Of a DNA stretch of 64,000 nt, positions 1-59,418 are shown piece by piece (the first letter of the stretch is position 1; the number at the start of each line of letters is the position of its first letter). The stretch lies in contig OX597814.1 of NCBI GenBank assembly GCA_951406725.2, positions 158,844,001 through 158,908,000 on the forward strand. The letters run 5' to 3'. The notes beneath the pieces were generated by a model, which saw only the letters and a program-made list of their open reading frames with translations, did no database searches and was not told where the DNA came from. Source of the DNA: Octopus vulgaris. Lineage: Eukaryota. A program made the translations under genes and the position numbers.

Positions 1-896
1 GAGCACGTGGTATAACTATAAAAAATAGTGATGATGGAAGTATGTAAATAACATAAATATTTTACAAATTAACACATTCAGAAAATTTATTATAATTTTT
101 GTCTTCAGAAATCATGTAATCAACAATTTGAGAAAATAATGAATGTATAATTTTTTTTTTTATTTGCATTGGAGAACTCTAATGATTTTCACAAATGTGA
201 AGATATATATAATGATGTGTGTGCTTGTGTGTTTCCAGATGATGAAACTCAGAGAAAAATTAGTAATATACATGCAATGTTAAATACTTAATTTTAACTT
301 TCACCTGATGTTTTTCATTAACAAATTTCCCAGCCCAACTTCAGAAGACAAAATTAAAGGGAAACAACTATCCTACCCTGCTATCAGGAGGAAAACAAAG
401 GAAAAGAAAACTAGATACTAAGTAGATGATACAACACTAAATCAATATATAACTATACATGTAAAAAATACAATTTGAATTTTAAAACATATCTGCTAAA
501 TTAAAAATAGTTAAAAGGCTATCAAGATTTTGCTTAAAATTTTTTTTATCTATTAGTAGTGTCCATAGAAATTCTACTCCTTAAAATTCGCCCCACTTGG
601 GAATATATCATGTCATTTCCTGCATAATCCATTGATTACTTTCTGTTTTTTTGCCTATAGTAGAAAGAGTTATTATGTGTGTGAGTGTGTGTATGTGCTA
701 GTAGCATTTATTTGAATCTCACTTGTTTTATCACTGACATACATTTACCATTCAGTTTCTACAGTATAACATTTTATACCACAGGATTCAATAATTAGCA
801 CTTAAGTATAAGATATTTAAATAACATATGCCAAAAATAGTTATAATATCTAAATATAAAAATGTTATATTTAAAGTATAACAAATAAGTTCAAAC

Positions 897-1199
897 CTGC
901 AGATCTATAAAGAGCTACTGGATGTGAAGCCTCTAGACTTTCTCCAGACATTGTTTCAGGCCTGATTCGAAAATGATAATCACAGTTAGGTTTCAAGCCT
1001 GTGATTCTGTAGAAATTTTCAGTGACTCTTGTTGCATAACTTCTCCATTGATGACTTGGATATTCCCGAATTTCAATTGTATATCGCAACTGAATATTTG
1101 TATTATAAGATGAAATATAAAGCCGGCGCCATGATATCCAGACAGCTTGTGGTTCAATACCATACAATTGAGGTTTTTCAATGGGGCATTGTGGAACAA
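897..1199 (-). CDS. Fn3 domain exon 11
   Basis: Core of ORF 871..1224; 303 nt, phase 1-1. Confidence 0.92.
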
Positions 1200-1570
1200 C
1201 TAAAACATAAAATGTAAAAGACATGTTACTTAAGCAAATAATATTACAACTTGATTAAAATTTTGTTATTTTTTTAAAAATCAGATAAAAATTATGCTCT
1301 GAATATTTTTGTCAGGAATGATATACTTAGAATCTCTTTCTCTTCTTTGAATAAAGAAATGATAGGAGGGTAATAACTGGTATAGTTATCATAATTAGAA
1401 CTACTTAAATAATGTCATAATGAAGTAGTTAATTGTTAAACAGGTGCTTACAAAAATTAATTCATGATTTAGGCAAAGTTAAATATTTCCAGAAACACTA
1501 ACATAAAAATATAAAAGAAAAGGTTTAAAACTCCAATGCATATATCTGTATATGTGTATACATAAATATA

Positions 1571-1608
<38 letters not shown>

Positions 1609-4600
1609 CGTGCGTGCGTGTGTGTGTGTGTGTGTGTATGTGTGTTTACAAAAATACTTAATTCTTTTTTGTCATATAAAGTTGCATCCATATTTTTCCA
1701 ACTAATTTGCAATATAAGTATTTCATGGATCTTATTGTCATGTATTATTAATATCAAAACAAGGTATTTCTACACATATATAGATATATGTATTGGAGTT
1801 TTAAACCTTTTCTTTTGTATTTTTATGTTTGTGTATCTGGAAATATTTAACTTTGCCTAATTCATGAATTGATTTTTGTAAGCAGCTGTTTAACAATTAA
1901 CTATTTCATTGTGACATTATTTAAGTAGTTCTAATTATGATAACTATACTAAATATGCTAAAATATTTGTTGCACCATTCTAAGTCAAGGCTCGAATCAC
2001 TCGATCATAACTCTGTCTCCATTATTAGAATCTTGTGAGATACTTACCTCTACTTCGACTGTATGACACAGGAATTGATGGTTCAATAGCAGAACTAGAA
2101 CCTGTCTCAGCTCGAACTCGAAATAAGTAGTTACGTTTCGGTTTTAAGTCTGTTAATTTGTAAGTAGTACTCCTCACACCGCCAACCACACGCTTCCATT
2201 CTCTTGAAGGAAGTTCTTGTGATTCAATAGCATATGTGTAATCTTTTCCAACAGAAGGTGCTCTTGTTGGTCTCCAAGACAGCTGAAAGCCTTTAGATTG
2301 GATATCAACTATCTCAGGGGTTTCAATAGGTCGTTTGTATTCTGAAACAAATTCAATGTTATAATAATATAACTTGTGTAGCAAATGAACTGAACTTTAG
2401 TTTAAATCAGAATAATAGAATTAATTTATACTTAATGAACACAATGAAGTAAATTAATGTTTCTTTTTCATATATTTTGTAAAAAGTGTAACAAAGAGCT
2501 CCATTCCCATATAATGTTGAAAATGATTTTAAAAGGCTTAGTTTAATCGTATTTAAGAGAAGCAGAAATTTCACAGGTCCTGTTCAAATTAGTTTATGTA
2601 AAAACCTTTACATGCTATTTGGTTGTTTATTAAAAAACATGAAAGTTCATACCAACTACAGGCACTTAGAGATATGCTCTGATGAAAACATTCCTATTTA
2701 TAATCAATTCTTAATAAAAACCTAAATGTAATTTTAAGAAAATTTTCATTTGCAGAAGTAGTGGGTTGATTTTCCCAGTTTAGTTAGTATTTTCCAATTT
2801 AACAAATAACAATATTGTTTAACACAAGTTGTGTGATTTCCATTATATTTAATTTATGGAAGCACTTTAAAAATACAAAGGATGTGTTTTTCTTACGGGA
2901 GATGGCAGGAACCCTTATTGCCATCGATGGTTCACTGACAGCAAATGACGTCTCAGCTTGAATTCGAAAGGTGTAATCTTTGTCAGTGCGTAATCCTGTT
3001 AAGTAGTATGACGTGTGTGGGATTTTAGCAACAAGTGGCCTCCATTTGGATGATGGAGAATCTTGAACATAAATACTATAAGTTATGGGTATCTTGTCTC
3101 TTAAATATGATGGCAGGGCTGCAACACGCCATGATAGACGAAGGGATCCAGGCTGAACATCAGATATGACTGGTTCTTCATGAGGCATACAAGGTGGAAC
3201 TAAAATAGAAGATCAATATAACATTATTATAATCCATATATATATATATGTAAACAGGAATAGGCATTCAAAGAATCAATCAGAGGAGCTCACAGTAAGC
3301 TGGCGTGCAGCTCTCAAGAAAACAGTGGCTGTGGCTAAGGTCTAACTTCACTGACATTCTCATAAACCAAGAATCACAATGGTGAAGAGTATATAGCAAT
3401 TAACAAGATAAGAAAAATGAGAGGAGAGATTCCATTTGTTGATAGCAATTAACAAACAGCTCTTCTCTCTCTGCTCTTATTTTGTTAATCATATATATAT
3501 CTATCCCTTGCAGATTTGACAGAAGAAAATCAGATGCCTTTGGTGCTAAATTTTAAATCATGATATCAAATTAACTGCCATTCCTCCTGCATACTTGGCA
3601 GATGTAAGATGCTACTCTTGTCCACTAAAATTTTTCTTATCACACCTGTATTAATTTAGTGAGTTTTCTGTGGCTTAGAAGTATTTTGACTTCAATTTTT
3701 AGTGAAGCATGTGCTTATGTAGTACACTAGGAAATATAAATATATTTATATATCTTATATATCATTAATTTTGCCAAAACAGCTTCTATGGTCACTAATG
3801 TTATTATCTTTAGGAATAATATCGTTCATTTATATTTATAAATAATTTCACATGGTTCATTTGTTTCAATGGTGTTCAGCCACTCAAACGAATTTACAGG
3901 CATGGTATTAGTGAATTCTAGTAGCTATCCCTTGCAGATCTGACTGAAGAGAATCAGGTGCCTTTGGTGCTAAATTCGAAATCATGATATCAAATTAACT
4001 GACATTCCTCCTGCATCCTTGGCAGAGGTAAGACGCTACTCTTGTTCACTAAAATTTTTCCTAACATACCTGTATTAATTTAGTGGCTTTTCTGTGGCTT
4101 AGAAGTATTTTGACTTCTATTTTTAGCAAAGCAGGTGCTTATGTAGTACCCTAGTGTATATAAATATATTTATGTCTTATATAGTATATATATATGGCAA
4201 ATGTTTTTATTTTTCATTCCCTTCAAGATTTTATCCCTAATAGTGGTTTGGACTTTAGCTGTTCCTTCTAGCGTGAAAGGAATCCTGTGATGGATACCTC
4301 TTATGTGTTTAAATGTACACTGTGTATATATATATATATGCATACATACACACAAGTAAATTAAAATATTCATCACAATTATATTAGAAAAAAAATGTTT
4401 CTTTGACTCTATAGTTGTAAATATGAATTATTTTCATAATTTAAAATTTTACATCTATAATGAATTTCTATTTATATTAACTTTATCCAAACAGATTAAG
4501 AGATTCTCAAATTTCTTTTGATGTGACCCTATAAGAACAACTGTTGAGATAGAATGTTTCATTATTAAAAAAAGGAATAAAAATAATGCTAGATTATTAT

Positions 4601-7600
4601 TATAATAAGATCTTTTAAAAATTTTAATATTTCATGCAGTATAAATTTTAGATTAGAAAATAAAATAAAAACTATGTTATATGACCAGATTGTCTCAATT
4701 TTGGAATTTTAATAAATTAAAATAAATCAGTATTTGATATCATACCTGCTCTTTTTCTAAGGATTAATGCACCAGTTGGTTCACTGATACCAAATTCATT
4801 TTCAGCTCTAATACGGATAGCATATTCTTTATTTGGATGTAGATTATCCAACTTGAAAGCTGTTGTTGGTATACCTTTAGCAACAGTAACCCAGTGGCCA
4901 AAAGGTATTTCTTGTAACTCAATTCTGTAGGAAACTGGTGAATAATCAACAATTCTAGAGGGTATTTCAGCTGATCTCCAAGCTAAAGACACTGAATCAG
5001 AGGTTATATCAACAACATAGGGTATGTCTTTAGTCATCCGTGGAGGTCCTGTAAAACATGGAAGATATTAAAGAATCTTTATATGTCTCATTGCATCTTG
5101 GAAGATATTTGTAACTGTTACTATAAATAGATACATTTGTGTGTGTGAGAGAGAGAGATAAACATTTGATATCAATTTACAAGTTTAGGACAATATAATC
5201 CTATTAACAAAATTCACAAATTTAATGTTAAATAGGCATATATATTTTTCCTTTCTGATGATGTCATATGAGCTACATATTGTTTACAAAAATACTTAAT
5301 TCGTTTTTGTCATATAAAGTTGCATCCATATTTTTCCAACTAATTTGCAATATAAGTATTTCATGGATCTTATTGTCATGTATTATTAATATCAAAACAA
5401 GGTATTTCTAGTAGAATGCACTGCATGAGCAAAACAGTTGTAGATTATTTATAAAGGGTCAGTAGCTGTTCAAAGTTAAAATAGGCTGGCTTTTGAAAGG
5501 CAAACTCAGTTCTAGTAATGTGTGGTTTCCATAAAAAATTTAATTTTTTTACTGTTCATTTTTAAGATATTTCTTAATTATAATTTGTTCTTCAGTGAAA
5601 AAGTAGAAGCTTTGCTGTTGCAAAAGTAGTTCCTAAGTTCCTACTTCATATCCTCATTCAAGGTAAAGATGTACATTCAACAGGAATTGTTGAGGTTGCA
5701 TGCAGTTTCAGTCAATGTGAGAGAAAGGAGAAAAGGGTGTGTATGTGAATGTTTGAGCATATGTGAGTGTGTGTGTGTGTGTGTGTTTAAGAGTGTGAGT
5801 GTGTGTTTGTGTAGTTGTAGACAGTAAAGTCATATAGAAAACATAATTATCATGTGGACTAATAAAAAAGTGGTATGCAAGAAAGCATAATCCATGAAAT
5901 TTAATTGAGTGTGCAATTAATAATGCTAAAATTGATAGTGGTGAGAAATAACAGCAGAAACGGAATAGAAATATGTGATTATTTCATTAAATTTCAATAA
6001 CCTGTAACAATTAGTGAAATTAGTTTGAACCTACCTGCACGTCTAGCCAAATACACAGGAAGTGTTGGCTCACTCAGATCTGATCCTATGTAAGCTCTAA
6101 TGCGGAACAAATAGTCTCGATCTGGTAAAAGATTTGATACCTGGTAACTTAGAGTACTTATATCCCGAGCCAGAGGGTGCCATAATTCAGAAGGTGGTTC
6201 TTGAATTTCAATGAGGTACAGTAATTGACTGAGGCTCTTTGAATAACCACGGGGTAATCTGCCCTCTTTCCAGGACAGTTTTATAGATGTTGGGTGAATG
6301 TCAGACATATGTGGTTCATACAATGCCATTTGAGGAACTGAAAACAGAAAATATATTACATCCTAGAGAATCTTCATTAAGTTGACTTTAAACAGTTACC
6401 TTATTTATCAGATTTAATAATACTGCATTTTTATCTTTATTTACAGTTAATTTCGATGAAGCTGTTTCTTAGTGAGAAGAATGATTTGCAATGTATTAAT
6501 TTAGCACTAACTGTTAGTAGCCTTTGGTTACTTGGGCAACAAGCTTTCCAAAGTTTATATAATTAGTTTTTCACCTACTTATTCTTATCATATAACTCTT
6601 TTCCAATATAATGAATGAAACACATTTGAAATTGTTTGATCAGAATGTATTATAAACAATCAATGACTAATGTTTGTAAGCATTAAATTTTACATTATAT
6701 TACAATATAATTTGATCCACAAAAATTCATTCATTTTTTGTTTTTACTTGTCAAAAAATGTAATTAATTCAGTACTTATATTCTTCAATAAAAACATTCT
6801 TTTAGTCTACATACTATTTAAAGGCAACATTCAATTCTGCACTTACAAAATTAAGAACTTCAAAAACAAAAGTTTGATATTTCTAATGAAACCATTATTC
6901 TGCTTTATACAGGAAAATTCAATGAATTTTGAGAAAATTACAAATTATGGACATAGAATATTACTTTCATTGTTTCTTAGTTAATAGTATTAATATCTAC
7001 CGCAACAAACTTGTTTGTAACATGTTGAATAATTTCCAGCATAAACTATATTAACTAACATATTAAAAAACATGGGAAGATCAATGTTTGAACATATGAC
7101 AAGTGAATAAATGGATAGGAAAAAATACAAAGTGTCTTAAAAGTAAAAAGATACAAGGTTAACTATGAAAAACGACTAGAAGTTGAATTTTTAACAAAGT
7201 GATAAGTAGAATTTAATTAAAAAAATCTCTCTAGTTTATAGTTGTAGATATTTAATCTCTCTAGTTTATATTTGTAGCATCAAAACTTATTTTAACCATA
7301 CAGGAAAAGTGATAATATATATTATTTATACAAACTTAACTTATTTAAAATTATTATATCAAATTGAAAACAACATTAATATAATATCTATAAATAGTGT
7401 AAACTTCCCAAAATATTACTTCCCTAATATTTCCAGAGATATAAGTCATTAGTTACTATATGCAGCTATGATTAACAAATGATTCAAATAAAACAAATTA
7501 TACTCATAACAATGAGTTTAAACACTTTTACAAATATTGTAGATGAACTATGCAAAATTACTCTACTAACTTTAGTGTCTGGACATCATTAGATCCCAAA

Positions 7601-10600
7601 TGGACTCTAATGAAGTAAAAGTCTGTTTGAGAGAAAATGATTGCTCCAGAACACTAATGTCAAGAGGCATGATAAAAAACAATATGACATGTAAATGAAT
7701 TAGCATTTTAAAAACCTATGATAAAAATATAAGCAGTTTAAGCATTTAGAAATTTTGCACTAACTTAAGAACTTACAAAGATCAAAGGTGACACTTTATT
7801 TTTATAATATTTATAAAACATAATTTGCAATAGAAATGTTTATGATGGAGATACATAAGTAATTTTCATTTCCAAAATATTTTGAAGAATATCGGCTAAA
7901 TTTGTAAGCCATATTCTGCTACATAATTAAGAATTAAAGTATTTTGAATCAATTTTTTATATACAGTAGCTAAAAATATAAGAATATGACTAAGTGAAAA
8001 TAGGAGTAAATACTTGACTAAAAGCTGTTTCTCTGCTGAAAGCTTTTAGTGCAATTTTCATAAAATTAGTCTTCAAATAGTTTTGATAGAATGTGTTTAA
8101 AAACTTTAATTTTCATATCTTAATTATTATAAGTTTATCTTTTCTGTATGAAAAGATAAGCTTATAATAATTGTATATACTTCAGAAAATCCTAACTATA
8201 CGCTGAGTTGTAATGTTAACTGAAAATCATATTTAAAATTGTCTTACCAGGTCTTCTTTGTAAAAGGACAGGGAATGTAGGTTCACTGATACCACTGTCA
8301 GTTTGAGCTTGAATCCTGAATCGATAATCTCGGTCAGGCTTTAAGCCAATCACTCTATAGTTGAGCTGAGTTATTCTATTTGCCACTGGCATCCATTCCA
8401 TACTTGGATATTCTTGCATAAATATGCTATATGTAATTGGAGAACGGAGGTGTTGATAGGCTGGAACCTCAGCTTGCTTCCAAGATAGGTTAACAGAATC
8501 ATTCCCAAATGGTGAAAGGATAACATCTGTTCGGGAAAGTTTTGGTGGCACTGCAAAGCAATTGGAGCATGAATTAATTGTAAAGCACATATACTTATAA
8601 TCTTATCAAATATTTTTAAAGTTGAACAAGAACAAAAAATTACCTGGAATCTAATATATCTATATATCTCATATTTTACTTACATATATCCATTTTATTT
8701 GTTATTGAGTTGTCATACAAGTGGAGCATAAGAATATTTTGTTTGAAAGGCTGACTTCGGTACTGCTTGATTCTGATTTTAATTCAATGTTTATTCATTT
8801 AAGCATAAGTAATATATTTGAATAAAGGATACAGTTGAAATGGATATATCTTAACGAAAGTTACTTTCCTCAAGACTTACTCTGATGAAAACTACAAATA
8901 TATAAGTTATAAATAAAAACCATAATTACTTACCTGGTGTTCTATATAAGCCAATAGGTGGGGTTGGATCACTCAAACCTCCTTTTGTATTTGCACGTAT
9001 CCTGAAAAAGTAATCATGATTTGGTGACAAATTTTTGATTCTGTAACTTGTTCCAGTTACTCCTCTGGCTATCTCATGCCAATGATATCCTGGTATGTCT
9101 TGTTGTTCAATAATATAATCAATCACTGGATACTCCACTTCATGTACTGGCCTTTTAATTAGATACCATCTTAACAATATATCAGGACGTTCTTCAAAGA
9201 TTTCTAAATTATGGATTGGTGGCTGGATAGGAGCTAAAGTAAGAATAAATAAAAAATTAAATGTTTTGCAAAAAAGAAGTGGTAACAATTCAGTATATGT
9301 TAAAAAAAATTAATGGAGTTATATAATGTATTGAACTTTATTTTCAAGTCATAGAAAATGACAATTTGTCTAAGGCCAACAATAAAAAAAGATTTCAAAC
9401 TCAGTCCATACAAAATCTATTGAACTTAATAATTCCATAGACTATTAGGTTTCATTTCAGGATTGAGTGAGTTCAATAAAAACTTAATTTACATTGTATT
9501 TCAAACATTATCTTGTTAATGATAATTTTATCTAAATTTATGACTGTGTATAACCTGCAGTAATATGAATTCAAACTCTGCTACAAGCACTATTTTATGC
9601 TCTTATGAAATATATATTTGTCTATCTGCTTAGCTAAAATTGAGTGTAAGCATTAAAGAATTATCCATTTATGTCTTCTTAAGTTCTAAATTCAGGTCCA
9701 GGTAGAGGTGATAACATGAGAACAGATCAAATTCTAGAGTTGGTCCTATCAACTTACCAACAAAGTCTTGGCTTTGTATCAGTGTAAGAGATGATTATGA
9801 ATTAAAGAAATAGGAGTGTTGAGTTGGCAAAATTATTAGAGCATCATACAAAATGCCTTATAGTATTTAGTTATAACATTTACATTTTAGTTTCAAATCC
9901 TACCAAGGTCAACCTCTGGAATTGATGAAATTAAAGTATCAGTTAAATGCTGATGTTGATTTAATCAATGTATTTCCTCCCAACAAATTGCCAGCTTTGT
10001 GTTTAATTTAGAAGCAACCAAATAAATGATACATGAAAAAAATAAAGAAGTTATTAAAAAAAAGTTTTAGTTGTAGTAGTTGTGGTATTAGGATAGTAGA
10101 TTAGCAGAATGATTAGGTGATCAGTAATAATCCTTTCTACTATAGGCACAAGGCCTGAATTTTTGGGAAGAAGCTAGTTGATTACACTGACCCTTATGCT
10201 CAAATGGTGCTTAATTGATTGAACCCTGAAAAGATGAAAGACAAAGTCAATCTCCGCAGCATTTGAATGCAGAATATAAAAGCAGATAAAATACTGCTAA
10301 GCATTCCATCTGACATGCATATGATTCTGTCAACTCATAGTCTTAATGTTTATGATAATGCATTAGTAATAATGGTTTCAAATTTTGGTGCAGGGCTAGC
10401 AGTTTTTGAGGAGAGGGGGACATTAATTATATCGACTCCAGTACTTGACTGATACTTATTTTAAAATTCAACAAATCATTACTTCTAAAGATTACAATCA
10501 CTTTTGCTTTTAAAATCTATTAAATTTTTTTAATTGGTGTTATGATGAATAGGTTTGCACATTTAAGACATTTGGATGAATTATTTTATTCACTTTTCAT

Positions 10601-13600
10601 GTTAGTTTATTAAACTTATCATTATTTTGTAGTCCTGCCAATAATGTTAACATTGTTTCTTGGAGATATTCATTTGGTTTGGATATGCTAATCATAAAAT
10701 TACCTATATTCTAGAGACTTTTCAATAAAAGTGAGCAAGCTTATTTTATCCATAAATTGGGGGGAAATAAATGTCAAATGGAGATCAATGACGGAGAAAA
10801 CAACAATTTTGATAAAAATATATTTAGGCACCAAATAAATTGGGAAAATTGTTAAACTTTAAAGGTAATTTTAATTTAGACTACTTACATGCAAACCTAC
10901 GTAAAGCAACTGTTCTTGAAGGAGGGCTCAATCCATATTCACTTAAAGCTCTAACTCGGAAGTTGTAATCTCGAGCAGGAGTAATATCACCTAAATGGTA
11001 ACTTGTTGTTGGTACACCACTGACGACTGGATGCCAGTCTGGATGAGGAGGCTGTTGTGATTCAATCATAAATAAAAGTGATCCATCACCATCACCATAG
11101 CTAGGTATATCTGTTCTGCTCCATCTGAGATTTACAGTGCTTGGTTCATATTGTTCTATATCCAGATGATCAAGGGGGCTTTTACCTTTTGCTGAAAATA
11201 AGTGCAATCCATACAAACAGTATTATATATGTATATAATTCTATTGTTTACCATCAAAATTGAAAATCCTGTTATCAATAATTGTTAAAATTATGAAAAG
11301 TAATCATTGTGATGGCAATAAAATATACAATTGTGTAACGAATCTTAAAGGTAAAAAATTTAATTATTTTTGCTTGATCATCAATTTTGCAAAAAAATCA
11401 TCGATATTAGTATTATTGATATCAATATAATATGAAAGTCACAAATTATATTTGATAAAACCTATTATACATTCATTCTCATGAACATTCTACCAATTAT
11501 TAGACAAGATGTATTTGTTGGTAAAAGTAGGTCTTTACATGTTATTCTGAATACCAAGTAAAAAGAAAATAACAAATAAATAAGCAAAAAAAGAATATAT
11601 CAACTAAAAAGAGCACAAGAGCATTTTGCCTTCTGCTGGATGAAAATTTACCCATAGTTCTGTACATATTTACAGGTGGTGATGGTTCAGTAACTCCCAA
11701 TGGAGAATATGCTCTCACTCGGAATCTATAATCTTTATTTGGCTCCAGCCCTTTGATAACGTAAGATGTGTCTGGTATTTTGGATGCATATTCACGCCAT
11801 TTATGTTCAGGAGGTTGTTGTATTTCAATAATATATGTTAGCTCATCATCTGTGGCTCTGAAACTTGGTATGTGTAACCGATTCCATCGAAGACGAATTG
11901 ATGTTGGGTCAAGGTTTTCAATGTAAGGACGATCAACTGGTATACCAGGATATACTAAAATAGTAATTATAATGCAGAGAGAAACTCAATGAACATAATA
12001 TAAATAGAAATAGAAATAGAAAAAGAGTTTTAATGATAAATACAAATAAATCAGAATATATAATTTTGTAGTTGCAAACTATTACCTTAGAGGTAAATCT
12101 AAATTGATATATTTCACATTTTTATTACCAATTATTTGTTTACTTTTGTATTTCTCATGTTTGTGTTCATGACTGATTAAAAAGCTTTAGTAAATGTTAT
12201 ATAGTAATAACATTTTTGAAATTTTCAGAAAATCCATTTTCATATCAAAAGAAATAAAAAAATAGTCAATTTTCTATGATACTGATCAAGGATAAGGAAT
12301 TTTAAAATTCTGCAGATATTATTTTATAACTGTAGTAATGGAAGAAAAACTGCCATAATTGAAAGAATGTTGAATATGTATTAAATTTAAAAGAAGGAGA
12401 AGAAGTGAAGAGACAAACCACTAGAGACATAGTGCATGCAAGGCAGATGACTACTTGAAATATACAAAAATGGAAAAAAACATATAAGAAGAAAGAATGA
12501 AGTAAGCTGGTGCTACAGAAAAAAGCACTTAGTACGTTCTGTAAAGTAGTTGATATTAGGAAGGGCATCCAACTGTAGAAACCATGCCAAAACTAAGATG
12601 CAGGGGCAAAACTTGATACTCCAATAAGTTCAATCCTGTTAAACTGTCCATCCCATACCAGCATGGAAAGTGGTTATTAAAATGGTGGTGGTGGAGGAAA
12701 GGAAAAAATAATATTTAGAACTCAATGCAATAAAATTCTTAAATAATACAGTTCTCCTGCCTTTGGTGTGACAACATAAACACAATCAGGTATTTCTTCA
12801 TTGAAAATGTTCAAATGGCCTTCAACTTCTTTTCTTCACTTTCTTCTTTGCCATTCTTTGTTACTATTGTTCCAGTACATGGGTGCTTCAACATAAAATA
12901 ATGTTGTTGCAAAATCATCATTGATGCACGATGAAAAGAATTCTGTCAGTGTTATTCTTGTAAGTCATTCATTGACAGCCATATATATCCTCATTATTTC
13001 TGAGCAATATTCTTTGTTCATCTAGTAGATGAATTTGTAGTTTCACTATTGCTGGTGCTCTTTCATGAATTGAAAATCCTAAGATGGATGTGACTGCTTT
13101 GGATGGTCCAATATACCTACCCATTAGTTATTGACTAATTTCATTATCATTGTTTATTTGAACAGCAGCTTGATCATTTCCTTTCAGCTTGTACTTGATG
13201 ACATACTTAATTGACCTCACTGAGGCAATGATTTCAACATTTCAGTGGCATTTGAATGCTCTTAAAAGAGTTTCATTATAAGGTACAACCCATTTGTTGC
13301 TTATTTTTCCATTCTTATGCGATTCAACTCCTCCAATTGCAACTAATCTTCATCTATAAAGAGATAATCTCTCTGACTGTTTCTCTGCCTTTTGAACAAG
13401 ATGATAAAGATTAATATTCTATTTTAAATAAAATAGTAATTTTCCCCTTTAAGAAAAAAATCACGTACCCATGATTTAAAACATATCTCAATATAGGGAG
13501 AATTTCTCTTTCAGTTTATGGTGCTCAAAAGTTGTATAAATGATTAAAGGGAGAAAAAAAGAAAGTAAGAAAAAAGGATGGCCGAACGGTGGTAGCTACT

Positions 13601-14306
13601 TGATTTTTTTTTAAAGGGGGAAATGACAATTTTATTTGTAATCTTTATCATCTTAATCAAATAACAGGGAAAAAAAAAACTTTTAGTTTTAGTATAATAC
13701 AGATAGGAATAAATCCATCATTTATTCATCCCATAAGGACAAACTTGAAGGCAGACAGACAAACAAAGGGGGAGATGTATATTGTATATATGTGTGTATA
13801 TGTTTATTGTGTGCATGTGTATGCTTGTTGTCCATATGTACTTTTGTTCTTATTTTGCCCAGCTTTAACTGTAATGGAGCTTATGATAAAAATTATTCCA
13901 GTTGTGTATCTCCTGCCCTTTGTATATGTGCAGAGAACACAGGACTACATTAGCCAACATGTCCTGTTTCAAGACAGAAGCTTATGAATTGAGAGAGATT
14001 TGGCTGCTACTTTTATGAGGTCTGGCTAAACTGTAAAAGCCATACAGACAGTAGAGTGCAATTTTTAAATTGATATAACTTCTACTTCTGATATGTTGAA
14101 TGACCACAGAGGGATTCCATGGCAAAACAACTATTACAACAACAGCAACAACATTATATTATTTAGTTATGAACTTTTAATTTTCTTTTGTATTTCATTT
14201 TACATATTGCTTAATCTACAGGTTTTAGTTTATTTCATTTGATTTGAATAAATGTTTGCATGATAATGCATGTGCTTATATATATCTGTATGTATGTGTG
14301 TGTGTG

Positions 14307-14338
<32 letters not shown>

Positions 14339-16430
14339 TGTATGTATGTATTTATTATTTCAAGTTTCTCCAGTCCACTCAGCTGGCAAAAATGAGTTGT
14401 ACCTATGATTCAAAGGACCAACCCCATCACATTCTGTCATATTTCATATTGTCATTCTGTCAATTTCGCTAAGAACTACATTGAGGGTATACATACCTGT
14501 GGAATACTCAGCCACCTACATATAAATTTCACAAGTAGGCTGTTTCATTGATCTGATCAACTGGAATGTTTATCATTGTAACTGACCGAGTGCCAGTTTT
14601 GTGTGTGTGTGTGTGTGTGTGTACGCATGTGCATGTGTGCTCGCGCATGTGTGTATGTCATTGTTCAGTTTTATTTCAAGATTTCTTGCCAATAAAGAAA
14701 GCCAGTTTCTAACCTAGATTCAAGGTCCTTCATTGGAATTTCAACATTAACAGCAGGGTATGTATGTATGTATGTATGTATGTATGTATGTATGTATGTA
14801 TGTATGTATGCATGCATGTATGTATGGATGCATGCATGCATGCATATATGTATATCATGCAAATTATAATGTTAATCAGAAGGACTGAAATGAATTTGAA
14901 TATTTGAAAGAGTAGCTGTGAGAGAATTATAAGAGAAAGAATTCTCTGGAGGGACCAAATTAATTTTTTGTTACTGCTCCTCAGGGAAAGCATACCTAGT
15001 TTCCTTCCCCAATCAAGCATGGAATATTTATCTAATTTATTAAGTAGTTATAAATTATGTTGTCACAATGGTGAAAAGTATAATTGGCATATTTATGTTT
15101 TTGACAACTCATCTTTTAATTAAATGATATATTTATTTTATGTGCAGCATAAATGTATACAGCATAAATATGTACAGCATAAATGTACAGCATAAATGTA
15201 AGGAACAAATTGAGGGTGTCTGGAGTGTTGGACAAGAGAAATTTTGCAAATTGAAATAATTGTGAATATTAACTTCAGAGTGAGGTGAGACAGATCACTT
15301 CATTGAAGGACAAAAGATAATCAAACAGCTATACTTGTTTGGTGGTGTTCACTAACTCATTAAGACAACCCATGAATTCGTAAGATGGAGTAAGAGACAC
15401 TTTGAACAAAACAATTGGATATTTCAGTTACTAATAACTAAGTGAAAGAAGGGAAGGATGAGGAGAATATATTTTATGGATGACACAGACACCACTTTTG
15501 AGAATGAAGTTGGAATATGGAATGTCAGCTATTAAGGAAAATCAATGACACACTTCATTAACAAATGCATCAAACTCAACCATTACACATTGTCTTTAAA
15601 ACAATGATTAAAGCAGATCTGAAACTTTGAAAAGGTTATCCATGTAAGTTAGAAATAAAAATAAAACAAGGAAAACATATACAAAAGAAAGCAAAAAATA
15701 GAGTGAATAATTTCAGAATAAAAAAGAAAAAGGAAAGCATACACAGCAATTATTTTCAAAAATACATGACAAAATCTAAATAAAATATATTTTTGCTTTC
15801 TGTGAAATTTATAAACTAAGTCTTTTCTGTTCTATTGCAAAGACTGTTTTCAGAAGAGTTCTACTTATATTCGAAATTATTTTGGTCTCCTTACTAGGGA
15901 ATAAATCAGCTAACATTGATAGACAGATCAGCTTTTGCTTCCCTTTTACTTCCTTTATTTCCTCTTGTATTTCCTACTTGAGGCAGATGTTAAGTCTCTA
16001 TTGCTGAATGGCGAAATAACTTAAAGCAATTCATAGAAACATATGTGCTTGTACAAATGCATGTGTGTTTGTAAACAAAATGTCAATAGCAACATAAAAG
16101 TATGTCAGACAGGAGACTCGTGCACACACACACACTCACACACACACACACACACACACACATGAATACACCATCATCTTCAGTAGCAGCAGCATCAGTG
16201 TCATTGTCTTTTTAATGTCTAATTTTGCTTAAGTCAGAGATTCTTTCTATTATTGGATTCAACCTTCATCTGTTTCCAAGCAAGGCAATAGTTGCCCTGA
16301 ATGATTGTAAATAAATAATACCAATTATATGAACAGTGGTTCATTTATGTTACTGCTATGAACTATCCTGCAGGACTTGATTAACTATCTGAGAGGTAAT
16401 CATGTATCTTTCCTCACCAGATATTCTGAG

Positions 16431-16470
<40 letters not shown>

Positions 16471-16997
16471 CATATATATATATATATATATACACATATC
16501 ATTGTACTATGCTGTACTTCATTTGTATTCTTGTGTTTGCTCTTACTCTTATTCTATTTGAAAGGAGAAACACAACTTAGCTATTTGTAACTGACTTTTA
16601 TATGTATTAGCCCCACCAACCACTTAGACCCTCTGAAGAAGCCTAGGGGCACATCTACTATCCAAGCCTTGTCTGCCCACCCCTGCATAACACTGAAGAG
16701 GTGGAGATAACCTGGAAGATTTCATTGCCTCTTGGCAGAAATAGTCATAAGGACCTAGCACCTGCACACCCATTTAGTTTTTTGCCAATTTGCTCATTTG
16801 CTCAATTGCTCATTTGTTTCTATATGCTTATATGTATTCACACCCTTGTTTATGCAGTTACTAGCTTTTTCCACTCACTAATCTGTACCACTTATACATG
16901 TGTGTGTAGTCATCCAATACATTTGAATAAATAGACATACTGGAATGTTTACCGGTTGATGTCTGTCAATTTTATATCCTCTCCGTTTTCTTATTTG

Positions 16998-17044
<47 letters not shown>

Positions 17045-20000
17045 CATTTCTAGATATGTATGTTCTCTCTTGTTTTAGTATATTAGTTATGCTATTGATG
17101 AGAGGGGTTTCATATACACAGGCAACTCAGAATTTTCATAATTACCTGCTCAAATTTTTTTACATATATTTGCAAAGTGCATGACTATAGACACACATAG
17201 ATCCCTAGATTCACATATACATACCTTGCAGTATGTAATGCTAATTAAAATATTTTTATATTACCAACAAAATTATTTTGAAGCCATTTGCATCCACATA
17301 TATCTAAAGCTGCTTTATGTGTACATAAAGCAGCTTTAAATATAAATACACTATAAATATATTCAAAATATTTTTGTATAAAATCACTCAGGCATGCCAC
17401 ATGCTTAAAATGATATTTAATCATTTTGATTATATTACCTGGATATTTCTCCCACTCAATGGATATTCCTGAAGACATAGAATATATCAACAAATAACAA
17501 GTGAAAAAATTCACCCTTTCTTAATAATAATATATAACATTATAAAAATGTTTCTCATCTGAAACAATGATTTCTTACATCATTTTGTATCTTATTTGAA
17601 CTAATTATATTGTAATTTTTTAAAATTAAACTTTAATTACCAATGTTTATGTTCCAAATTTTTAATTTGTTGCACTATTCATTTTAAACTGATAGTATTC
17701 TTGCCCTTAGGGGATAATGTTGAAAATATAAAGTTCACAAGTAAGTCTTGTATAAAACAAAATAGAACAAAATACTTTTAGAGATATGTGAAAAGGATAC
17801 ATAGAATATTTAGCTATCTAAAGATTACTTAGACATTTAAAATGGTCATGAGACAACCAAAAGTTTATTTATGAATAGCCAAGCAATGAAATTAAATCTA
17901 GTAAAGGATAACTGTTCTAAGAATGCTCAATAAAAGAAAATTGTTTCAATTTAAAAACTGAATTTTTACCTTTAGCTCTTCTTAAAGTAATTGGATATGT
18001 AGGTTCACTTAGAACACCATGATCAATTTCTGCTCTGACTCGAATCATGTAGTCTTTTTCTGGATTTAAACCATGAATATAATGACTAGTATCAGGTATA
18101 CCACTTGCCAAAGGTATCCAGTCATTACTTGGAAGCTCAGAAATTTCCAACCTATAGGTATGTGGTGTATGCCTTCTTTTGCTACTTTCAGGAGTAAGTT
18201 GCATGGGTCTCCAAGCTAATCTCGTGGATTCTTCACCGAAATCTGGGAGTAGTGGTTTTGTCAAAGGAAACGATGGCATAGCTGAAAAGATTTAATATTT
18301 TAATTCCATAACTATTTAAGACCTCAAAGTCACAATTTAAATAACCTGAATTTATCAGCAAACATTATGATCTTAAATTATGCACATGGAAAATGTGGAA
18401 ATTTTTATAAAATATAAAATAACTTTTTGTTTAATATTAAAGATATTTTTCAAACATAAAGTCATACATTTAAGCATTTTAAATAATCATCTTTATATTT
18501 AAATTTTTAATTCAATTTCGAATTAATTGTGTATTCAACTTCTCTTTGTCATAATCAGAGATGGAGATGGGTTTACAAACTAGGGGTATACAAAGGTCTG
18601 TGAGGCTGAAGTTGAGAAGGAAGTGAGGTTAGATACTAAGAGGCTTCCTTACACATACACACACCCGTGAGTTTATTAATAGGAATACTGCAACCAGTGG
18701 ATCCTCCCCATTTTCCTCACTAGTCATAATAATAATCATATACATTACTAACAGAAAAAATTGAAGTCAAACAAATGCTTTGCAGTAGTTATTTTGTACT
18801 TTTGTAATCTAAGTTTAAATTCTGCTTCAGTCACTTCTTTTTTACTTATGATGAACCAATAATGTAATGTTGTCTGTTCAATGAAGAGCAGCCCTTGTTT
18901 CATAGAAATTAATCTTATGTCTAAAAAGGAAAATTATAATTGAAACAAGTTATGAAAATGTGTTTGTACCTCAAATATGATTTCTACTTTGACTTACCAG
19001 TTCTTCTTGGCAGCATCACAGGTGCTGTTGGTTCTGAGGTAAAATTCTTATTTTCAGCTTTAATACGGAACATATATTCAGTATCAGGGTTCAGATTATC
19101 AAGATAGTGATCATTTCCCTTTATTCCAGATGCAAATGGCTTCCATGATCTGTGGGGTAATTCTCTACTCTCAATGCTATATGTAATTGGACCGACTTTA
19201 GAAGGAATATCAGCAGACACAGCTGGAACCCAAGAAAGCCTTGCAGAAGTTGGTTTGATATCAGACATAGATGGACGACCTGCATAGCATCCAGAAACTT
19301 TAAAAAAAGAATTAAAAGGTTATACAATATTACAATGTCACCAGATTTTATAATATAAAATTCAATTTCATATAAATTTGTTAAAGACAAAAAACATAAA
19401 CTGAAATATTAAAACTGATACCTTAAACTCCACCTGTTTATATAATTCTTTAATCAATAACAGAGGAATTCTTGACTGGCTGACTTGGAGGACTCATATA
19501 TAATAAACAGCTGAGTTCACAGCTGAATTTGTCAAATAAGTGGAAGTAGTTTTCCAAGTGTGAGAGCAGAATCAATGGACCAAAGAGTTATATAAGCAGA
19601 AATTTTAGGCTGAGTATCCAATGCAAACTATGGGTATACACAAGAAATACATACAGGTTGACAAAAAAGGTCTTCATATGTAGTAGATGAACAGGAGTGG
19701 TTAGTAGTAACTGCACCTATTAAAGCAGGGGTTGGAGAAAATTTTTAACCAATTACTCCAAAATTTATGCTGACATTACCTCCTTGATTTGAAAGGAAGA
19801 AAATCATAGATTCTTTGAATTCAAAAGGTTTATTGAATTTATTTATATAGAGAATACAATTATAAATATAAAATGTATAAAACAAATGCAATAAAATAAA
19901 TTAATATCCTCATTGTGAAACAAAAGGATTTTTCTTGAAACTTTTTCACTTTAGGCTTGGGAGCAATGATGTCTCAATTTTGTTACAATTTCATTAAAAT

Positions 20001-22498
20001 TGGGGCATTTTGATGCCAGAGCAATTTGGATAGTCTTCAGGATCTAATCAATTTCTCTGTTTTTGCTTTTATGTTCATTAGAGTGGAAAATCCTTATTTG
20101 CAAAGGTAGGTTGTTGCAAAAGGCAGCAACTTTTTGACTGCCTCCTTATGTCAGAAAAATTTTTGTTGTAACAAAGAACATGTTTTTTTCATATAATATT
20201 AATTGTCTAATGAGTTCTCATTACCCCCAAGAATATTACTTTTACCCTGCTTGAGGTAATCTACCTTGGTTTGCTGACCCTTGCATTATAGAGATTCTTT
20301 CAAAAACTTAAAGGTTCTCTGTAGTAGTCAACAATTCCTATTATCCAGGTGACCTAATTAGCAGTGAAAATAGGTGTTCCAAAACAATAGTACTCAGAGT
20401 AAGAATGTGTGGAAAAAGTTCAGGATGCTATTGCCTCCACAGACAACAAAAGGAATCTATCTCTCCCTCTTTCCCACTGAGTAGAGGATAGATTTTATGA
20501 AAGGCTTGTCAGTAGTAAGTTGAGCATGATTCTCTGGATGTGTTTTGTAAGTATGAATGATGGAAAACAAATGGGCTGAGAGAAAAACTGAGTATAAGAA
20601 CAATTAGGTGTAGTGTGCAAGAGAGAAGCCTATGCTATGAACATGTTGCATAAGAAGTCAACTACTCACCAATGTCTTAACTATAGCCAGATTTGTTGGT
20701 TATAGTTAATGGGAAAGAAAATGGGAAATTATGGTGGTAATGCTTATAAAATTAAAAACTTCCAATCACATATCTCAGCTTGAGCTCAGACTTATCTGAC
20801 AAGGAAAATATTTGCCATTTACAGAATTCTTTTATAACCAATAAATAATCACATACTTACTATCAGGGTAATCATCATATCTTTTATCTACAGGTATATC
20901 TGGTATAATGGTGGGTTTTGCATCAAATTTCTTTCTAGCAGGCATTTCATCTGGAACTATAAAACGATAAATGATATCTTTTATTTCATCTTTTCCTTAA
21001 TTTACATATGCTCTTATCTTTTCCATAATTTACATTGTATATTAATTTATACATAAATGTATGCATTAAGTACAAATATATAAATATATGATGTGATGTG
21101 TGTGTGTGTGTGTGTGTGTTTTGATGCATGAGCATGGACAAGAATGTAAGTATGAATGCATGAATCCACCTGGAGAAGTAAGAAGATATCTTCAAACAAT
21201 TATCTACATCCTTCACTTATCCTGCCCCTTTGACAATGATATCACCAACCAATTATGAGAAGCTTACAGAAAACTTGAAATCTTACCACACCATGACTTT
21301 CATAAGCATAAACATATCCAGAAGCTCAAAACTAAAAAATCATGGTGTGTCAATCTGTTATAATCTTTACACTATTCTATGATTGTGAAACATCGGTAGC
21401 ATATCAACATCAAATACACCCACTTGAGAGGTTTCATAAGGAAACTTGAGACTTAATTTGAACTATGATCAATGGATGAAGTACTGGCAAAAATAAAAAC
21501 CATAAGACTTAAACCATTAACTCCAATAGTTGAGATATGCAAAAAGGATGCTAGACATGAAAATACCCACACAGATCCTTTACTTTGAGCCTCTTGACAG
21601 TCATCATCCAAGATGTGCATCAGAGAAATGCATCTGTGATTCAATCAAGAAAACCATGCCATTTCAATAACTGTGCATAGTTTACTATTGACATTTCAAC
21701 TATTACACATTTCAAGTACTGTGCACCTTCTTTTATATATCCCAGATCATTATGTTTAGACCATTTTGTTTATATTTTATGAAAATCTTAACAAAAGTAT
21801 CCTTTCATAATGTGTGTGATTATGTCTTCCACATCACAGTAGCTTCTAATATTTGCCTCCTCAGGATTAATCTCCTTATGGATTTTGTTGTATAATATTC
21901 TAGCTATGATATCACATCTCATCGCCAGGTAATGCCATGATAACATTTTTGGACAACTTCTTAAAATACTAGTAACATCCACTGTTGGTTGGTCCATCTG
22001 TCTGTTTGTGTATGCTTGCATGTGCACATGTATAAATCGATGCAGGTATGGATATCATTGCATATGTGAGCCTGTATGCATTAACCTCTGTATGTGACAC
22101 AAACATATATTTATTAAATGCTAAACTTATTTTCAAAATGTAATTGTTTAATCAATAAATGTTACATTTATGATTTACTGAATAAAAAGCTTACTTTCAA
22201 AATTCAAACTTCCAGATGTAATAGCTCTTCCTGCTCTGTTGGTAATAACACATGCATACATTCCAAGATCAGTAGGTTGGACATTCTCTATGCCCAAATA
22301 GCAGTTGCCTTCAAATTCAGTTAACTTAAAGCGTGGATCTGGTTGAAGAGGATATCCATCTTTTGTCCTGTGAAATATATCAAATATTTTTTTTTTAATT
22401 GCAATATATTTATTTTTTTATCCTGAAAACAATGCCTGTTACCAGATTTATTAGTAAAGAATTATCATTCATTCATTCATACATACATACATACATAC

Positions 22499-22534
<36 letters not shown>

Positions 22535-22892
22535 ATACAGGTTACTGCAAGTGCAACCATAACTTGATGTTTGTATTTTCTCAGACAAGCTCACATAGAT
22601 AAAAGTTGATTTCAATGATACAGAATTATCTCTTGAATAGGCTATTTATTATGAAGATATGCCAATAATATATAAAGTAAAAGTGCTTTTATTACCTATG
22701 TTATAATTTTTTTTATTTTGTTAATCTGTTCACATATGTCTGTGGTTATCACACGTAAGCTGAGATTAACTTACTTATAAAATCACTTAAAATTCAAAGT
22801 TTTATTTTTAGAATGGTGGTATAAGATGACCCCAAATTTTTAGTGTAAATTTTAGAATTTAAAGGTCATCTTATAAGTGTAAATATATAGTG

Positions 22893-22975
<83 letters not shown>

Positions 22976-23709
22976 AGTAAAGACCCTCTTCAGTCGTGAA
23001 GGATCATGGGATTGCACCTAGAAAGTTCCCATTCAAGGAACAAGTCCGAGCAAATTGTTTATGGAAGATCAGTAGTCACTCATGCATACCAGCTGCCCCT
23101 CTCCATGCCAGCAATGTTAACCAAGGAAAAAAGCGAAGACTGATACAGCTTTGGCACTAGTGACATAGCAACTCATTTCTAAAGCTGAGTCAACTGAAAC
23201 AATGTGAAATAAAGTGTCTTGCTCAAGAACATAGCACACAGCCCAGTCTGGGAATTGAACTCACTACCTCATGACTTTGAGCTTGATATCATGCAACTTC
23301 ATATATATATATATATATCCCGCTGTTCTTGAGGAGACCTATTGAGCCAAGTGCGTTAACACCAACATCAAAATGAAAATCAAATGGAAATTGTAGTTAA
23401 GATACCTGTGCTGGTGACACATTAAAAGCACCGTCTGAACATGGCAGATGCTAGCGCCTCCTGACTGGCGTCCGTGTTGGTGACACGTAAAAGCACCAAC
23501 CGATCATGGCCATTTGCCAGCCACCTCTGGTCCATGTGCCGGTGGCACGTAAAAAGCACCAACTACACTCACGGAGTGGTTGGCGTTAGGAAGGGCATCC
23601 AGCTGTAGAAACACTGCCAGATCAGACTGGAGCCTAGTGCAGCCTCCTGGCTTCCCAGACCCTGGTCAAACCGTCCAACCTATGCTAGCATGGAAAACGG
23701 ACGTTAAAC

Positions 23710-23745
<36 letters not shown>

Positions 23746-47303: not shown

Positions 47304-47372
<69 letters not shown>

Positions 47373-58296: not shown

Positions 58297-58327
<31 letters not shown>

Positions 58328-59366
58328 TAGCACCATGCACTACTGGGATCCTCTACATACCCCAACAATTACCACTCTTTCTTTTTGGTTGTCATAATAC
58401 AAAGTATTTATTTTGAGTTAAATTATTTTCACTATACTGCCAAGGATCAGAAACACTCCCATTATTTTAAATGATTATATTCCAGAGTCGACTCCCTTGC
58501 CTTTTTTGACTAAAATTAATTATAATTGACATAATGATTTAGACTCAACAAAAACTGAATTCATTTAACAAAGTTTTCAGCTTAAATTTCTATTTTGGAA
58601 TGTTTCCATCCAATTGGTCGTTTTGATAATGATACTACTTTTCACATCAAACTAATTCAAATATTACATACCTTCTTTTGTTTTATCCATCGTTAGCATT
58701 TTTGAAGGAACAGTGCATACCTGTTACAAAACAAAAAGGATTAGATAAAAGAGAAAAATTAAATGAAATGATAGAGCATAGTTTTGATTTTCCTAATTCT
58801 GTAGTTATAGTAAACTTGAAACACCTCTGCATAAGTTTATAATTATTCATAAACAAATATAAATATTCTTATTACATTATAATAACACATTTTAGTTTTG
58901 TGGAAGATTAAGCAATTAAAAATCATTGAAGTATTAAAAGATATGGGTATTTTAATGTCTCAAAATAATTAGTACCTGATCCCTCCTTTCTAAACTTTGC
59001 ACAACCCACATTTCAGTGTCTGTTGAATTAAGGACCATTACTTGAACATCTTTTTGTAGTGTCACATTAGTTTTAGTGTCAGTAAAATCACACACAAGTG
59101 AATAGATTGGTACAGCATCCTACAAAACAATGGAAAAAAAACAGCTTTAACTAAAATCAAGCTGGTTTTAATTGTCTTATAAAATTTTCAAAAATCATAA
59201 GGTGTGGATATATATATATATATATACACATATAGCATCAGTAATGTATATAATATATTGTTGGATACCCTACACTATAATGCATATATATATTATGTAT
59301 ATATATATATATAGATAGATAGATATAGATATAGATATATATATATATGCATGAACATAGACACTG

Positions 59367-59418
<52 letters not shown>

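What the first reader, a model, noticed from the sequence alone, without database searches (positions are those of the whole stretch)
897..19297. Uninterrupted array of 11 Fn3 domains on an obscurin RhoGEF, one symmetric exon per domain
Seen: 11 exons of 294-312 nt, all phase 1-1, each a complete Fn3, continuing in frame after only 5 Ig domains. Known: UNC-89 and obscurin are built mainly from long Ig arrays with very few Fn3, while Fn3-rich arrays are typical of the myosin-binding regions of titin and twitchin, where Ig domains are interspersed. Inference: a lineage-specific architecture linking a RhoGEF module to a pure Fn3 rod, perhaps for thick-filament binding in molluscan muscle. Any subset of exons can be skipped in frame, so isoform length could be tuned combinatorially.
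Basis: partly seen in the sequence, partly recalled or inferred. Interest (0 to 1): 0.75.

Follow-up and report, generated by a model that had tools for sequence, protein, structure and literature searches.

The report
Mollusc obscurin with an Fn3 rod
This is part of the octopus gene for the giant muscle protein obscurin, in which one fibronectin-type domain appears to have been copied 16 times to form a rod shared by molluscs and a ribbon worm; it likely acts as a fixed-length spacer or scaffold, and although it is in automated gene models, my literature searches found no description of it.

Summary
In detail: 11 exons of 294-312 nt, all AG/GT, phase 1-1, each one Fn3 domain. Three corrections: a 30-nt microexon sits between units 2 and 3; the array runs past the window (12 tight units, 16 in all); and it ends in Ig-Ig-kinase-Ig-Fn3-kinase, the obscurin/UNC-89 tail. 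Spliced contigs from 4 of 4 runs laid show the 22195-20956-19297 joints. The RhoGEF-side and Fn3-side contigs end inside one shared exon, so only its 42-nt repeat is unbridged. The layout is not octopus-specific: gene models of 14 mollusc species and a nemertean have RhoGEF plus 12-17 Fn3, whereas 103 of 103 arthropod models have two Fn3. The units group with the single pre-kinase-1 Fn3 of arthropod obscurin (100/98) and lack the twitchin DGG motif (0 of 115), although an AU test did not reject the alternative (p 0.30). Combinatorial skipping is unsupported: no skip joint was seen, one contig equals the full exon sum (5072 nt), and 1 of 49 mollusc models drops an internal Fn3. Verdict: a real, ancient variant of obscurin that my searches did not find described; thick-filament binding is untested.

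The parts
18998..19297 (-). Fn3 unit 1 exon, 300 nt, phase 1-1
17970..18281 (-). Fn3 unit 2 exon, 312 nt, phase 1-1
17439..17468 (-).
   Evidence: joints in 4 of 4 runs; AG/GT; present in O. bimaculoides models
11652..11954 (-). Fn3 unit 3 exon, 303 nt
10889..11191 (-). Fn3 unit 4 exon, 303 nt
8934..9233 (-). Fn3 unit 5 exon, 300 nt
8248..8550 (-). Fn3 unit 6 exon, 303 nt
6035..6337 (-). Fn3 unit 7 exon, 303 nt
4746..5048 (-). Fn3 unit 8 exon, 303 nt
2897..3199 (-). Fn3 unit 9 exon, 303 nt
2048..2341 (-). Fn3 unit 10 exon, 294 nt
   Evidence: the loose end at 2897 matches this exon's start in 4 of 4 runs
897..1199 (-). Fn3 unit 11 exon, 303 nt
   Evidence: the contig length sum includes it
1..15 (-). 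Start of Fn3 unit 12 exon (303 nt, continues into L001). Units 13-16, Ig-Ig, kinase 1, Ig, Fn3 and kinase 2 follow 61-212 kb beyond the window start
20861..20956 (-). 96-nt linker exon between Ig5 and Fn3 unit 1, phase 1-1
   Evidence: joints 22195-20956 and 20861-19297 in 4 of 4 runs
22195..30704 (-). Exons for the 3' half of Ig2 and for Ig3-Ig5 (30704-30529, 26511-26042, 25786-25620, 24375-24244, 22367-22195); these Ig domains are split by introns
31560..32541 (-). 982-nt exon with 18.1 copies of a 42-nt (14-aa) P/E/V/K/A-rich repeat (31725-32485) and the start of Ig2; the RhoGEF-side and Fn3-side contigs both end inside it
33170..35499 (-). Post-PH linker and Ig1 exons (35499-35326, 34699-34580, 33406-33170)
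38489..41214 (-). PH domain exons (41214-41062, 38645-38489)
   Evidence: PF22697; joints
41727..48387 (-). DH (RhoGEF) exons (48387-48217, 46235-46166, 45731-45639, 43459-43376, 41891-41727)
56079..59685 (-). SH3 exon (56374-56079) and four upstream exons (59685-59636, 59119-58976, 58720-58672, 57882-57779)
   Evidence: the contig length sum fits

Best explanation
These exons encode 11 of the 16 tandem Fn3 domains of the octopus obscurin/UNC-89 orthologue (SH3-DH-PH-Ig5-Fn3x16-Ig2-kinase-Ig-Fn3-kinase); the array likely arose by repeated copying of obscurin's single pre-kinase-1 Fn3 and likely works as a mostly constitutive, fixed-length rod that replaced the usual Ig spacer between the RhoGEF head and the kinase tail. 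Shown: the exons, their splicing in series, their place in the RhoGEF gene, and the same layout across molluscs. Inferred: descent from the pre-kinase-1 Fn3 exon (a phase 1-1 exon duplicates without shifting the frame); an age older than the cephalopod-bivalve split; and a spacer or scaffold role. By analogy with C. elegans UNC-89, the SH3 would anchor on paramyosin and DH-PH would activate RhoA. A predicted short form stops after unit 12 and lacks the kinases.
For: Gene unity: joints in 4 of 4 runs from 4 studies. The X5 contig of 5072 nt equals the predicted exon sum of 5072, and the RhoGEF-side contig of 2185 nt equals 2182 plus 3 shared letters. Layout: models of 14 mollusc species carry DH-PH plus 12-17 Fn3; the nemertean Tubulanus has Ig11-Fn3x12; 103 of 103 arthropod models have one Fn3 at the same place before Ig-Ig-kinase 1. 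Origin: array plus arthropod pre-kinase-1 Fn3 form one side of a branch at 100/98 (98 of 288 rows) and at 0.997 (all 288 rows). The DGG-type motif is in 0 of 115 array units, 0 of 9 arthropod units, 100 of 110 twitchin units and 19 of 21 titin units. Mean identity is highest to the arthropod unit for 11 of 11 window units. Fixed length: octopus units 1-4 and 7-11 pair with oyster units in order; octopus units are only 26-45% identical to each other but 70-96% identical to the same position in Argonauta; 1 of 49 models lacks an internal Fn3. Domains between PH and kinase 1 number 23-24 in 9 mollusc models, 25 in the nemertean and 17-26 in 10 arthropod models. UNC-89 SH3-paramyosin binding and RHO-1 activation come from passages of PMC4865318.
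Against: The AU test did not reject array plus twitchin/titin as one group without the arthropod unit (p 0.302; 48 of 288 rows). The alignments are short (95-97 columns), the bootstrap had not settled, and no nematode or vertebrate obscurin Fn3 was in the trees. The annelid Dimorphilus model has only 3 Fn3 and 11 domains in the span, which weakens the conserved-length argument. Each unit is well conserved at its own position, which suggests binding partners as well as spacing. Logan contigs drop rare variants and 39 joints were not shown, so low-level skipping is not excluded. No single contig crosses the 42-nt repeat, and three models of other molluscs start after the DH domain, so some Fn3 transcripts may lack the RhoGEF. 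No functional data.
Confidence: 0.62

Rival explanations
1. The expanded Fn3 rod is a thick-filament-binding element that lies along the paramyosin/myosin core, as titin A-band and twitchin Fn3 do, acquired convergently. This can coexist with origin from obscurin's own Fn3.
For: Units 1-12 are mostly spaced about 100 residues apart with almost no linker. Each position is conserved. Mollusc units are richer in Arg (0.091 against 0.044 in twitchin) and slightly basic (mean +0.8). The top solved-structure hits by sequence are titin Fn3 tandems. Paramyosin-rich thick filaments in these animals are recalled, not from a call.
Against: The units lack the twitchin/titin DGG signature and the Ig-Fn3-Fn3 super-repeat. 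Net charge varies from -5 to +8 with no pattern, and nemertean units are mostly acidic. The titin hits rank first partly because many repeats add up in the score, and the single-domain fold search ranks Robo3 first. In UNC-89 the paramyosin contact is the SH3.
Confidence: 0.27
2. The symmetric Fn3 exons are a combinatorial splicing cassette that tunes obscurin length between muscle types.
For: All units are phase 1-1. One Mytilus galloprovincialis model lacks Fn3 unit 6 (1 of 49). Vertebrate OBSCN isoforms arise from one-domain-per-exon modules (passage of PMC12812942).
Against: No skip joint among those shown, and one unbroken contig spans the array in X5 and X7. Annotated variation falls in linkers and protein ends. 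Phase 1-1 is the ordinary state of Fn3 and Ig exons (recalled; the 21 upstream Ig exons share it). Unit order has been kept across mollusc classes.
Confidence: 0.07
3. The Fn3 array was captured from a twitchin- or titin-like gene, or belongs to a separate transcript that annotation fused to the RhoGEF gene.
For: The AU test did not reject grouping with twitchin/titin. One O. bimaculoides model (XP_052827439.1, 'titin-like') starts after the repeat exon and has no RhoGEF.
Against: That model starts inside the repeat exon, which both contigs enter from opposite sides. An older model of the same species joins the two parts (XP_014775820.1). Position, motifs and the best trees point to obscurin's own Fn3.
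Confidence: 0.04

Closest known systems
Mollusc and nemertean RefSeq/GenBank models named obscurin-like, titin-like, twitchin-like or unc-89-like (e.g. O. bimaculoides XP_014775820.1, Littorina XP_070188406.1, Mizuhopecten XP_021352030.1)
   Same: Same DH-PH-Ig5-Fn3x12..17 layout, most with the two-kinase tail; 94% identity to the O. bimaculoides model.
   Different: These are automated models with inconsistent names; bivalves have 17 units, gastropods and octopods 16, and the nemertean 12 with 11 Ig.
Arthropod obscurin/Unc-89 (Drosophila A8DYP0-6 and 102 other models)
   Same: DH-PH head where the model reaches it, Fn3-Ig-Ig-kinase 1-linker-Ig-Fn3-kinase 2 tail, and a similar number of domains between PH and kinase 1.
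   Different: Long Ig run (18 in Drosophila) with one Fn3, against 5 Ig and 16 Fn3 here. Kinase 1 is a pseudokinase in arthropods (PMC10129394, PMC11487192, passages) but keeps HLDxKPxN and DFG here.
C. elegans UNC-89
   Same: SH3-DH-PH, two kinases, and isoforms with and without kinases (PMC4865318, passages).
   Different: 53 Ig and 2 Fn3 in UNC-89-B; its sequence was not compared here.
Twitchin/projectin and titin A-band Fn3 arrays
   Same: Many intracellular Fn3 domains of about 100 aa in series in a giant muscle protein.
   Different: Ig-interspersed super-repeats, a single kinase, no RhoGEF, the DGG motif, and a separate side of the tree.

Membership tests
Obscurin/UNC-89 | SH3-DH-PH module | tested here: met
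   SH3 and PH Pfam hits on window exons; RhoGEF in the 94%-identical orthologue, mapped to window exons
Obscurin/UNC-89 | C-terminal tandem kinases with a linker-Ig-Fn3 between them, preceded by Fn3-Ig-Ig | tested here: met
   Exons found 163-212 kb downstream on the same strand; kinases group with arthropod K1 and K2 in a small FastTree.
Obscurin/UNC-89 | RhoGEF and Ig/Fn3 chain on one transcript | tested here: met
   Continuous joint chain in 4 of 4 runs except across a 42-nt repeat inside one exon
Obscurin/UNC-89 | Long Ig tandem with two Fn3 between PH and kinase 2 (canonical invertebrate layout) | tested here: not met
   Ig5-Fn3x16 instead; this is the variant feature and does not count against orthology
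Obscurin/UNC-89 | M-line localisation, RhoA exchange activity, paramyosin binding | not testable with these tools
   Needs experiments
Twitchin/titin A-band Fn3 array | Ig-Fn3-Fn3(-Fn3) super-repeat | tested here: not met
   No Ig within the 16 units
Twitchin/titin A-band Fn3 array | DGG-type motif (pattern taken from the alignment) | tested here: not met
   0 of 115 array units against 100 of 110 twitchin and 19 of 21 titin units
Twitchin/titin A-band Fn3 array | Common descent with twitchin/titin Fn3 to the exclusion of obscurin Fn3 | tested here: inconclusive
   Best trees say no (100/98), but the AU test did not reject it (p 0.302)
Twitchin/titin A-band Fn3 array | Binding to the myosin filament | not testable with these tools
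   Needs co-sedimentation or localisation
Combinatorially spliced cassette array | Skip junctions in transcripts | tested here: not met
   None among the joints shown in 4 runs; full-length contig in 2 of 4; 1 of 49 models skips a unit; rare variants not excluded

The most novel reading that the evidence does not exclude
Lophotrochozoan obscurin independently evolved a titin-A-band-like thick-filament ruler. Its single pre-kinase Fn3 was amplified into a 16-17-domain rod that lies along paramyosin-cored filaments, possibly matching their axial repeat, and positions an apparently active kinase 1. This would be a convergent solution for muscles built differently from those of the fly, worm and vertebrate models.
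Probability: 0.2. Interest if true: 0.75.

Novelty: new variant of a known kind. Interest (0 to 1): 0.42.

Why it matters
Invertebrate obscurin is described from the fly and the worm as an Ig chain with two Fn3. Molluscs, a nemertean and partly a brachiopod use a different build, hidden under names such as 'titin-like' and 'twitchin-like' that can mislead expression and proteomic studies of mollusc muscle. The swap of Ig for Fn3 at a similar total length is a natural test of whether obscurin's middle is a passive spacer or a binding surface. It also gives a concrete candidate for what organises thick filaments in obliquely striated and catch muscle. The finding is not specific to octopus and gives no evidence for combinatorial Fn3 splicing.

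Tried and rejected
Combinatorial skipping: looked for in contig joints and in 49 gene models; not supported. '11 units' as a titin-like 11-domain super-repeat: rejected, since there are 12 tight units and 16 in all, and other molluscs have 13-14 tight units. Octopus-specific layout: rejected. Sequencing runs: no RNA holder listed on record; I laid 4 of the 24 listed runs, all guessed to be RNA, and they show GT-AG spliced joints. Contig depth is lower on the RhoGEF side than on the Fn3 side in 3 of 4 runs; contig depth cannot rank parts of a gene, so I drew nothing from it. Contig breaks inside the array in X1 and X6 lie at single-letter differences or beside low-depth intron-containing contigs, so I did not read them as skipping (inference). 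The charge survey gave no clear binding signature. The fold search confirms an Fn3 fold but cannot show ancestry. The Bulinus protein with 40 Fn3 and no RhoGEF (P0037) and the N-terminal Fn3 units of the Dimorphilus model (8 of 12 with the DGG motif, outside the array branch) were set aside as unrelated. No complex prediction was run. Literature: nine searches gave no paper describing this layout. The library lacks most subscription journals. The figures of PMC12198301, whose kinase tree includes octopus and oyster sequences, could not be seen; its text supplements hold no 'obscurin'.
Full report
Setting. The window is AT-rich (31% GC) and lies on a 226-Mb contig of a 2.8-Gb genome. Its proteins are 91-94% identical to Octopus bimaculoides models, so it is an octopus.

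Observation. Six-frame translation shows 11 Fn3-like frames on the minus strand between 897 and 19297. Their exons are 294-312 nt, bounded by AG/GT, and all phase 1-1. All 11 pass the Pfam fn3 cut-off. An AlphaFold model of unit 3 has seven strands and pLDDT 89.6 and matches Fn3 structures. A profile of the units hit 17 of 11,065 frames in 464 kb, all on this strand.

Unit 12 starts at window base 15. Units 13-16 lie about 61, 135, 143 and 153 kb beyond the window start, also as single phase 1-1 exons. They are followed by Ig, Ig, kinase 1, a linker, Ig, Fn3 and kinase 2, ending about 212 kb out. About 4 kb after unit 12 there is a phase-1 acceptor with a 16-codon terminal exon, identical in protein to the end of two O. 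bimaculoides models. The Argonauta model instead continues to unit 13 and the kinases. I infer forms with and without kinases, as in UNC-89 (PMC4865318, passages), but did not lay reads on either joint. Upstream of SH3 lie 21 intact Ig exons and a dense run of 30-nt microexon candidates: 143 on the minus strand and 0 on the plus strand between 120 and 264 kb, in line with earlier scan notes.

Transcript evidence. I laid 4 of the 24 listed runs (4 studies, 2 organism labels; RNA is the tool's guess, but the joints are spliced). All four show 22195-20956, 20861-19297, 18998-18281 and every joint down to 4746-3199. All four also show a 30-nt microexon at 17468-17439 between units 2 and 3. In X5 a single contig of 5072 nt equals the sum of all exons from inside the repeat exon through unit 12 plus three letters; X7 has a 5097-nt equivalent. 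A second contig of 2156-2185 nt runs from the SH3 region through DH, PH and Ig1 into the same exon from the other side in all four runs. Only the 18 x 42-nt repeat inside that one open exon is unbridged. No skip joint appears among those shown (39 were not shown, and contigs drop rare forms).

Distribution. Searching with the array found DH-PH plus 12-17 tandem Fn3 in models of 14 mollusc species: Argonauta, O. bimaculoides, Crassostrea virginica, two Saccostrea, Tegillarca, Mizuhopecten, Argopecten, Pinctada, Mytilus californianus, Biomphalaria glabrata, Littorina, Babylonia and Nucella. The nemertean Tubulanus has Ig11-Fn3x12, a partial Lingula model has 7 Fn3, and the annelid Dimorphilus has 3. 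Of the 116 new proteins (the best 120 of 241 hits were listed), 103 are arthropod obscurin models, many of them isoforms of the same genes, and all have exactly two Fn3; the rest are 5 molluscs, 1 annelid, 6 twitchins and 1 nematode model without Fn3. UNC-89-B has 53 Ig and 2 Fn3 (PMC4865318, passages). The layout is thus lophotrochozoan, not octopus-specific, and is routine in automated models under misleading names.

Origin. The array sits exactly where arthropods have one Fn3, just before Ig-Ig-kinase 1. In a FastTree of 288 Fn3 domains (one partial titin unit dropped), all 115 array units and the 9 arthropod pre-kinase-1 units form one group at 0.997. In IQ-TREE on 98 of these rows the split has 100/98 support, with the bootstrap not fully settled. 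The DGG-type motif is absent from array and arthropod units but present in 100 of 110 twitchin and 19 of 21 titin units, and the group majority lines share several features between array and arthropod units. Against this, an AU test on 48 rows did not reject array plus twitchin/titin without the arthropod unit (p 0.302), and no nematode or vertebrate obscurin was included. Octopus units 1-4 and 7-11 pair with oyster units in order, whereas best matches of the Argonauta units in the nemertean show no order. The mollusc array therefore predates the split of the classes, and the nemertean array may have expanded partly on its own.

Skipping. Among 49 models in 12 sets from 11 species, one lacks an internal Fn3 and two end early with other termini. 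The remaining differences are in linkers and protein ends, including three models that start after DH. Units are 26-45% identical to each other but 70-96% identical to the same position in Argonauta, so they are not interchangeable copies. Phase 1-1 symmetry is better read as what allowed the duplications (inference). The young, homogenised upstream Ig array (84% mean identity among 19 units) and the microexon array are the better candidates for length tuning.

Mechanism. Shown: anatomy, splicing and conservation. Inferred: a near-linkerless rod. At about 3.6 nm per domain (55 domains spanning about 200 nm, PMC4865318 passage) 12 units give about 43 nm and 16 give about 58 nm plus linkers. The number of domains between PH and kinase 1 is 23-24 in 9 mollusc models, 25 in the nemertean and 17-26 in 10 arthropod models, but 11 in Dimorphilus. 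Fn3 gain therefore roughly offsets Ig loss, which fits a spacer or scaffold that holds the SH3/RhoGEF head apart from the kinases. Thick-filament binding remains a live rival: the units are conserved by position and are Arg-rich, but their charge is irregular and binding was not tested.

Literature. I saw passages of PMC12812942 ('mollus' 0 times), PMC4865318, PMC10129394 ('mollus' 0), PMC11487192 ('mollus' 0) and PMC12198301 (passages, section 14 and a supplement text search; its kinase tree includes octopus and oyster, figures not visible). Other papers were seen as search listings only. Nine searches gave no description of the Fn3-expanded layout; subscription journals are largely missing from the library.

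Verdict. A real feature and a clear member of the obscurin/UNC-89 family, in a variant shared by molluscs and at least one other lophotrochozoan phylum. It is already present in databases, apparently undescribed, probably self-derived and mostly constitutive. Interest 0.42.

Noticed in passing
L021-L026 (window-relative 64.0-115.8 kb), minus strand: 21 intact single-exon phase 1-1 Ig domains upstream of SH3, 19 of them with 84% mean pairwise identity, plus about four broken copies. An O. bimaculoides model joins 16 such Ig to the RhoGEF. A young, homogenised array.
   Followed up: partly
L026-L040 (window-relative 120-264 kb), minus strand: 143 candidate 30-nt phase-1 microexons on the gene strand against 0 on the other strand, matching earlier scan notes of a microexon array in the same gene.
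   Followed up: partly
L018-L019 and L041-L042 (171-212 kb beyond the window start): Kinase 1 keeps the beta-3 lysine, HLDIKPGN and DFG, as do the other mollusc, nemertean and annelid K1 sequences aligned, whereas arthropod K1 is a pseudokinase. Kinase 2 has HLN in place of HLD and, in the octopods, Arg at the beta-3 lysine position. The active/inactive polarity may be reversed relative to C. elegans. Predicted only.
   Followed up: partly
window 31560-32541: P/E/V/K/A-rich exon with 18.1 copies of a 42-nt unit between Ig1 and Ig2, a possible elastic segment. A newer O. bimaculoides model begins at its end, splitting the gene.
   Followed up: partly
L001, about 4.0 kb beyond the window start, minus strand: Short alternative terminal exon after Fn3 unit 12 that would give a kinase-less form; older oyster models and a Pinctada model also end after 13-14 Fn3.
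   Followed up: partly
window 58672-59119: Exons whose translation resembles a second, degenerate SH3-like segment before the main SH3 (judged by eye, not scored); the Lingula model scores two SH3.
   Followed up: no
window 56600-57345, 35890-36800 and 61157-61828: Fragments that look like transposon or retroelement remnants in introns (judged by eye translations; labels recalled).
   Followed up: no
protein P0087 (Dimorphilus gyrociliatus): The annelid model has 12 twitchin-type Fn3 before the RhoGEF and 3 obscurin-type Fn3 before kinase 1; possibly a fused gene model.
   Followed up: partly
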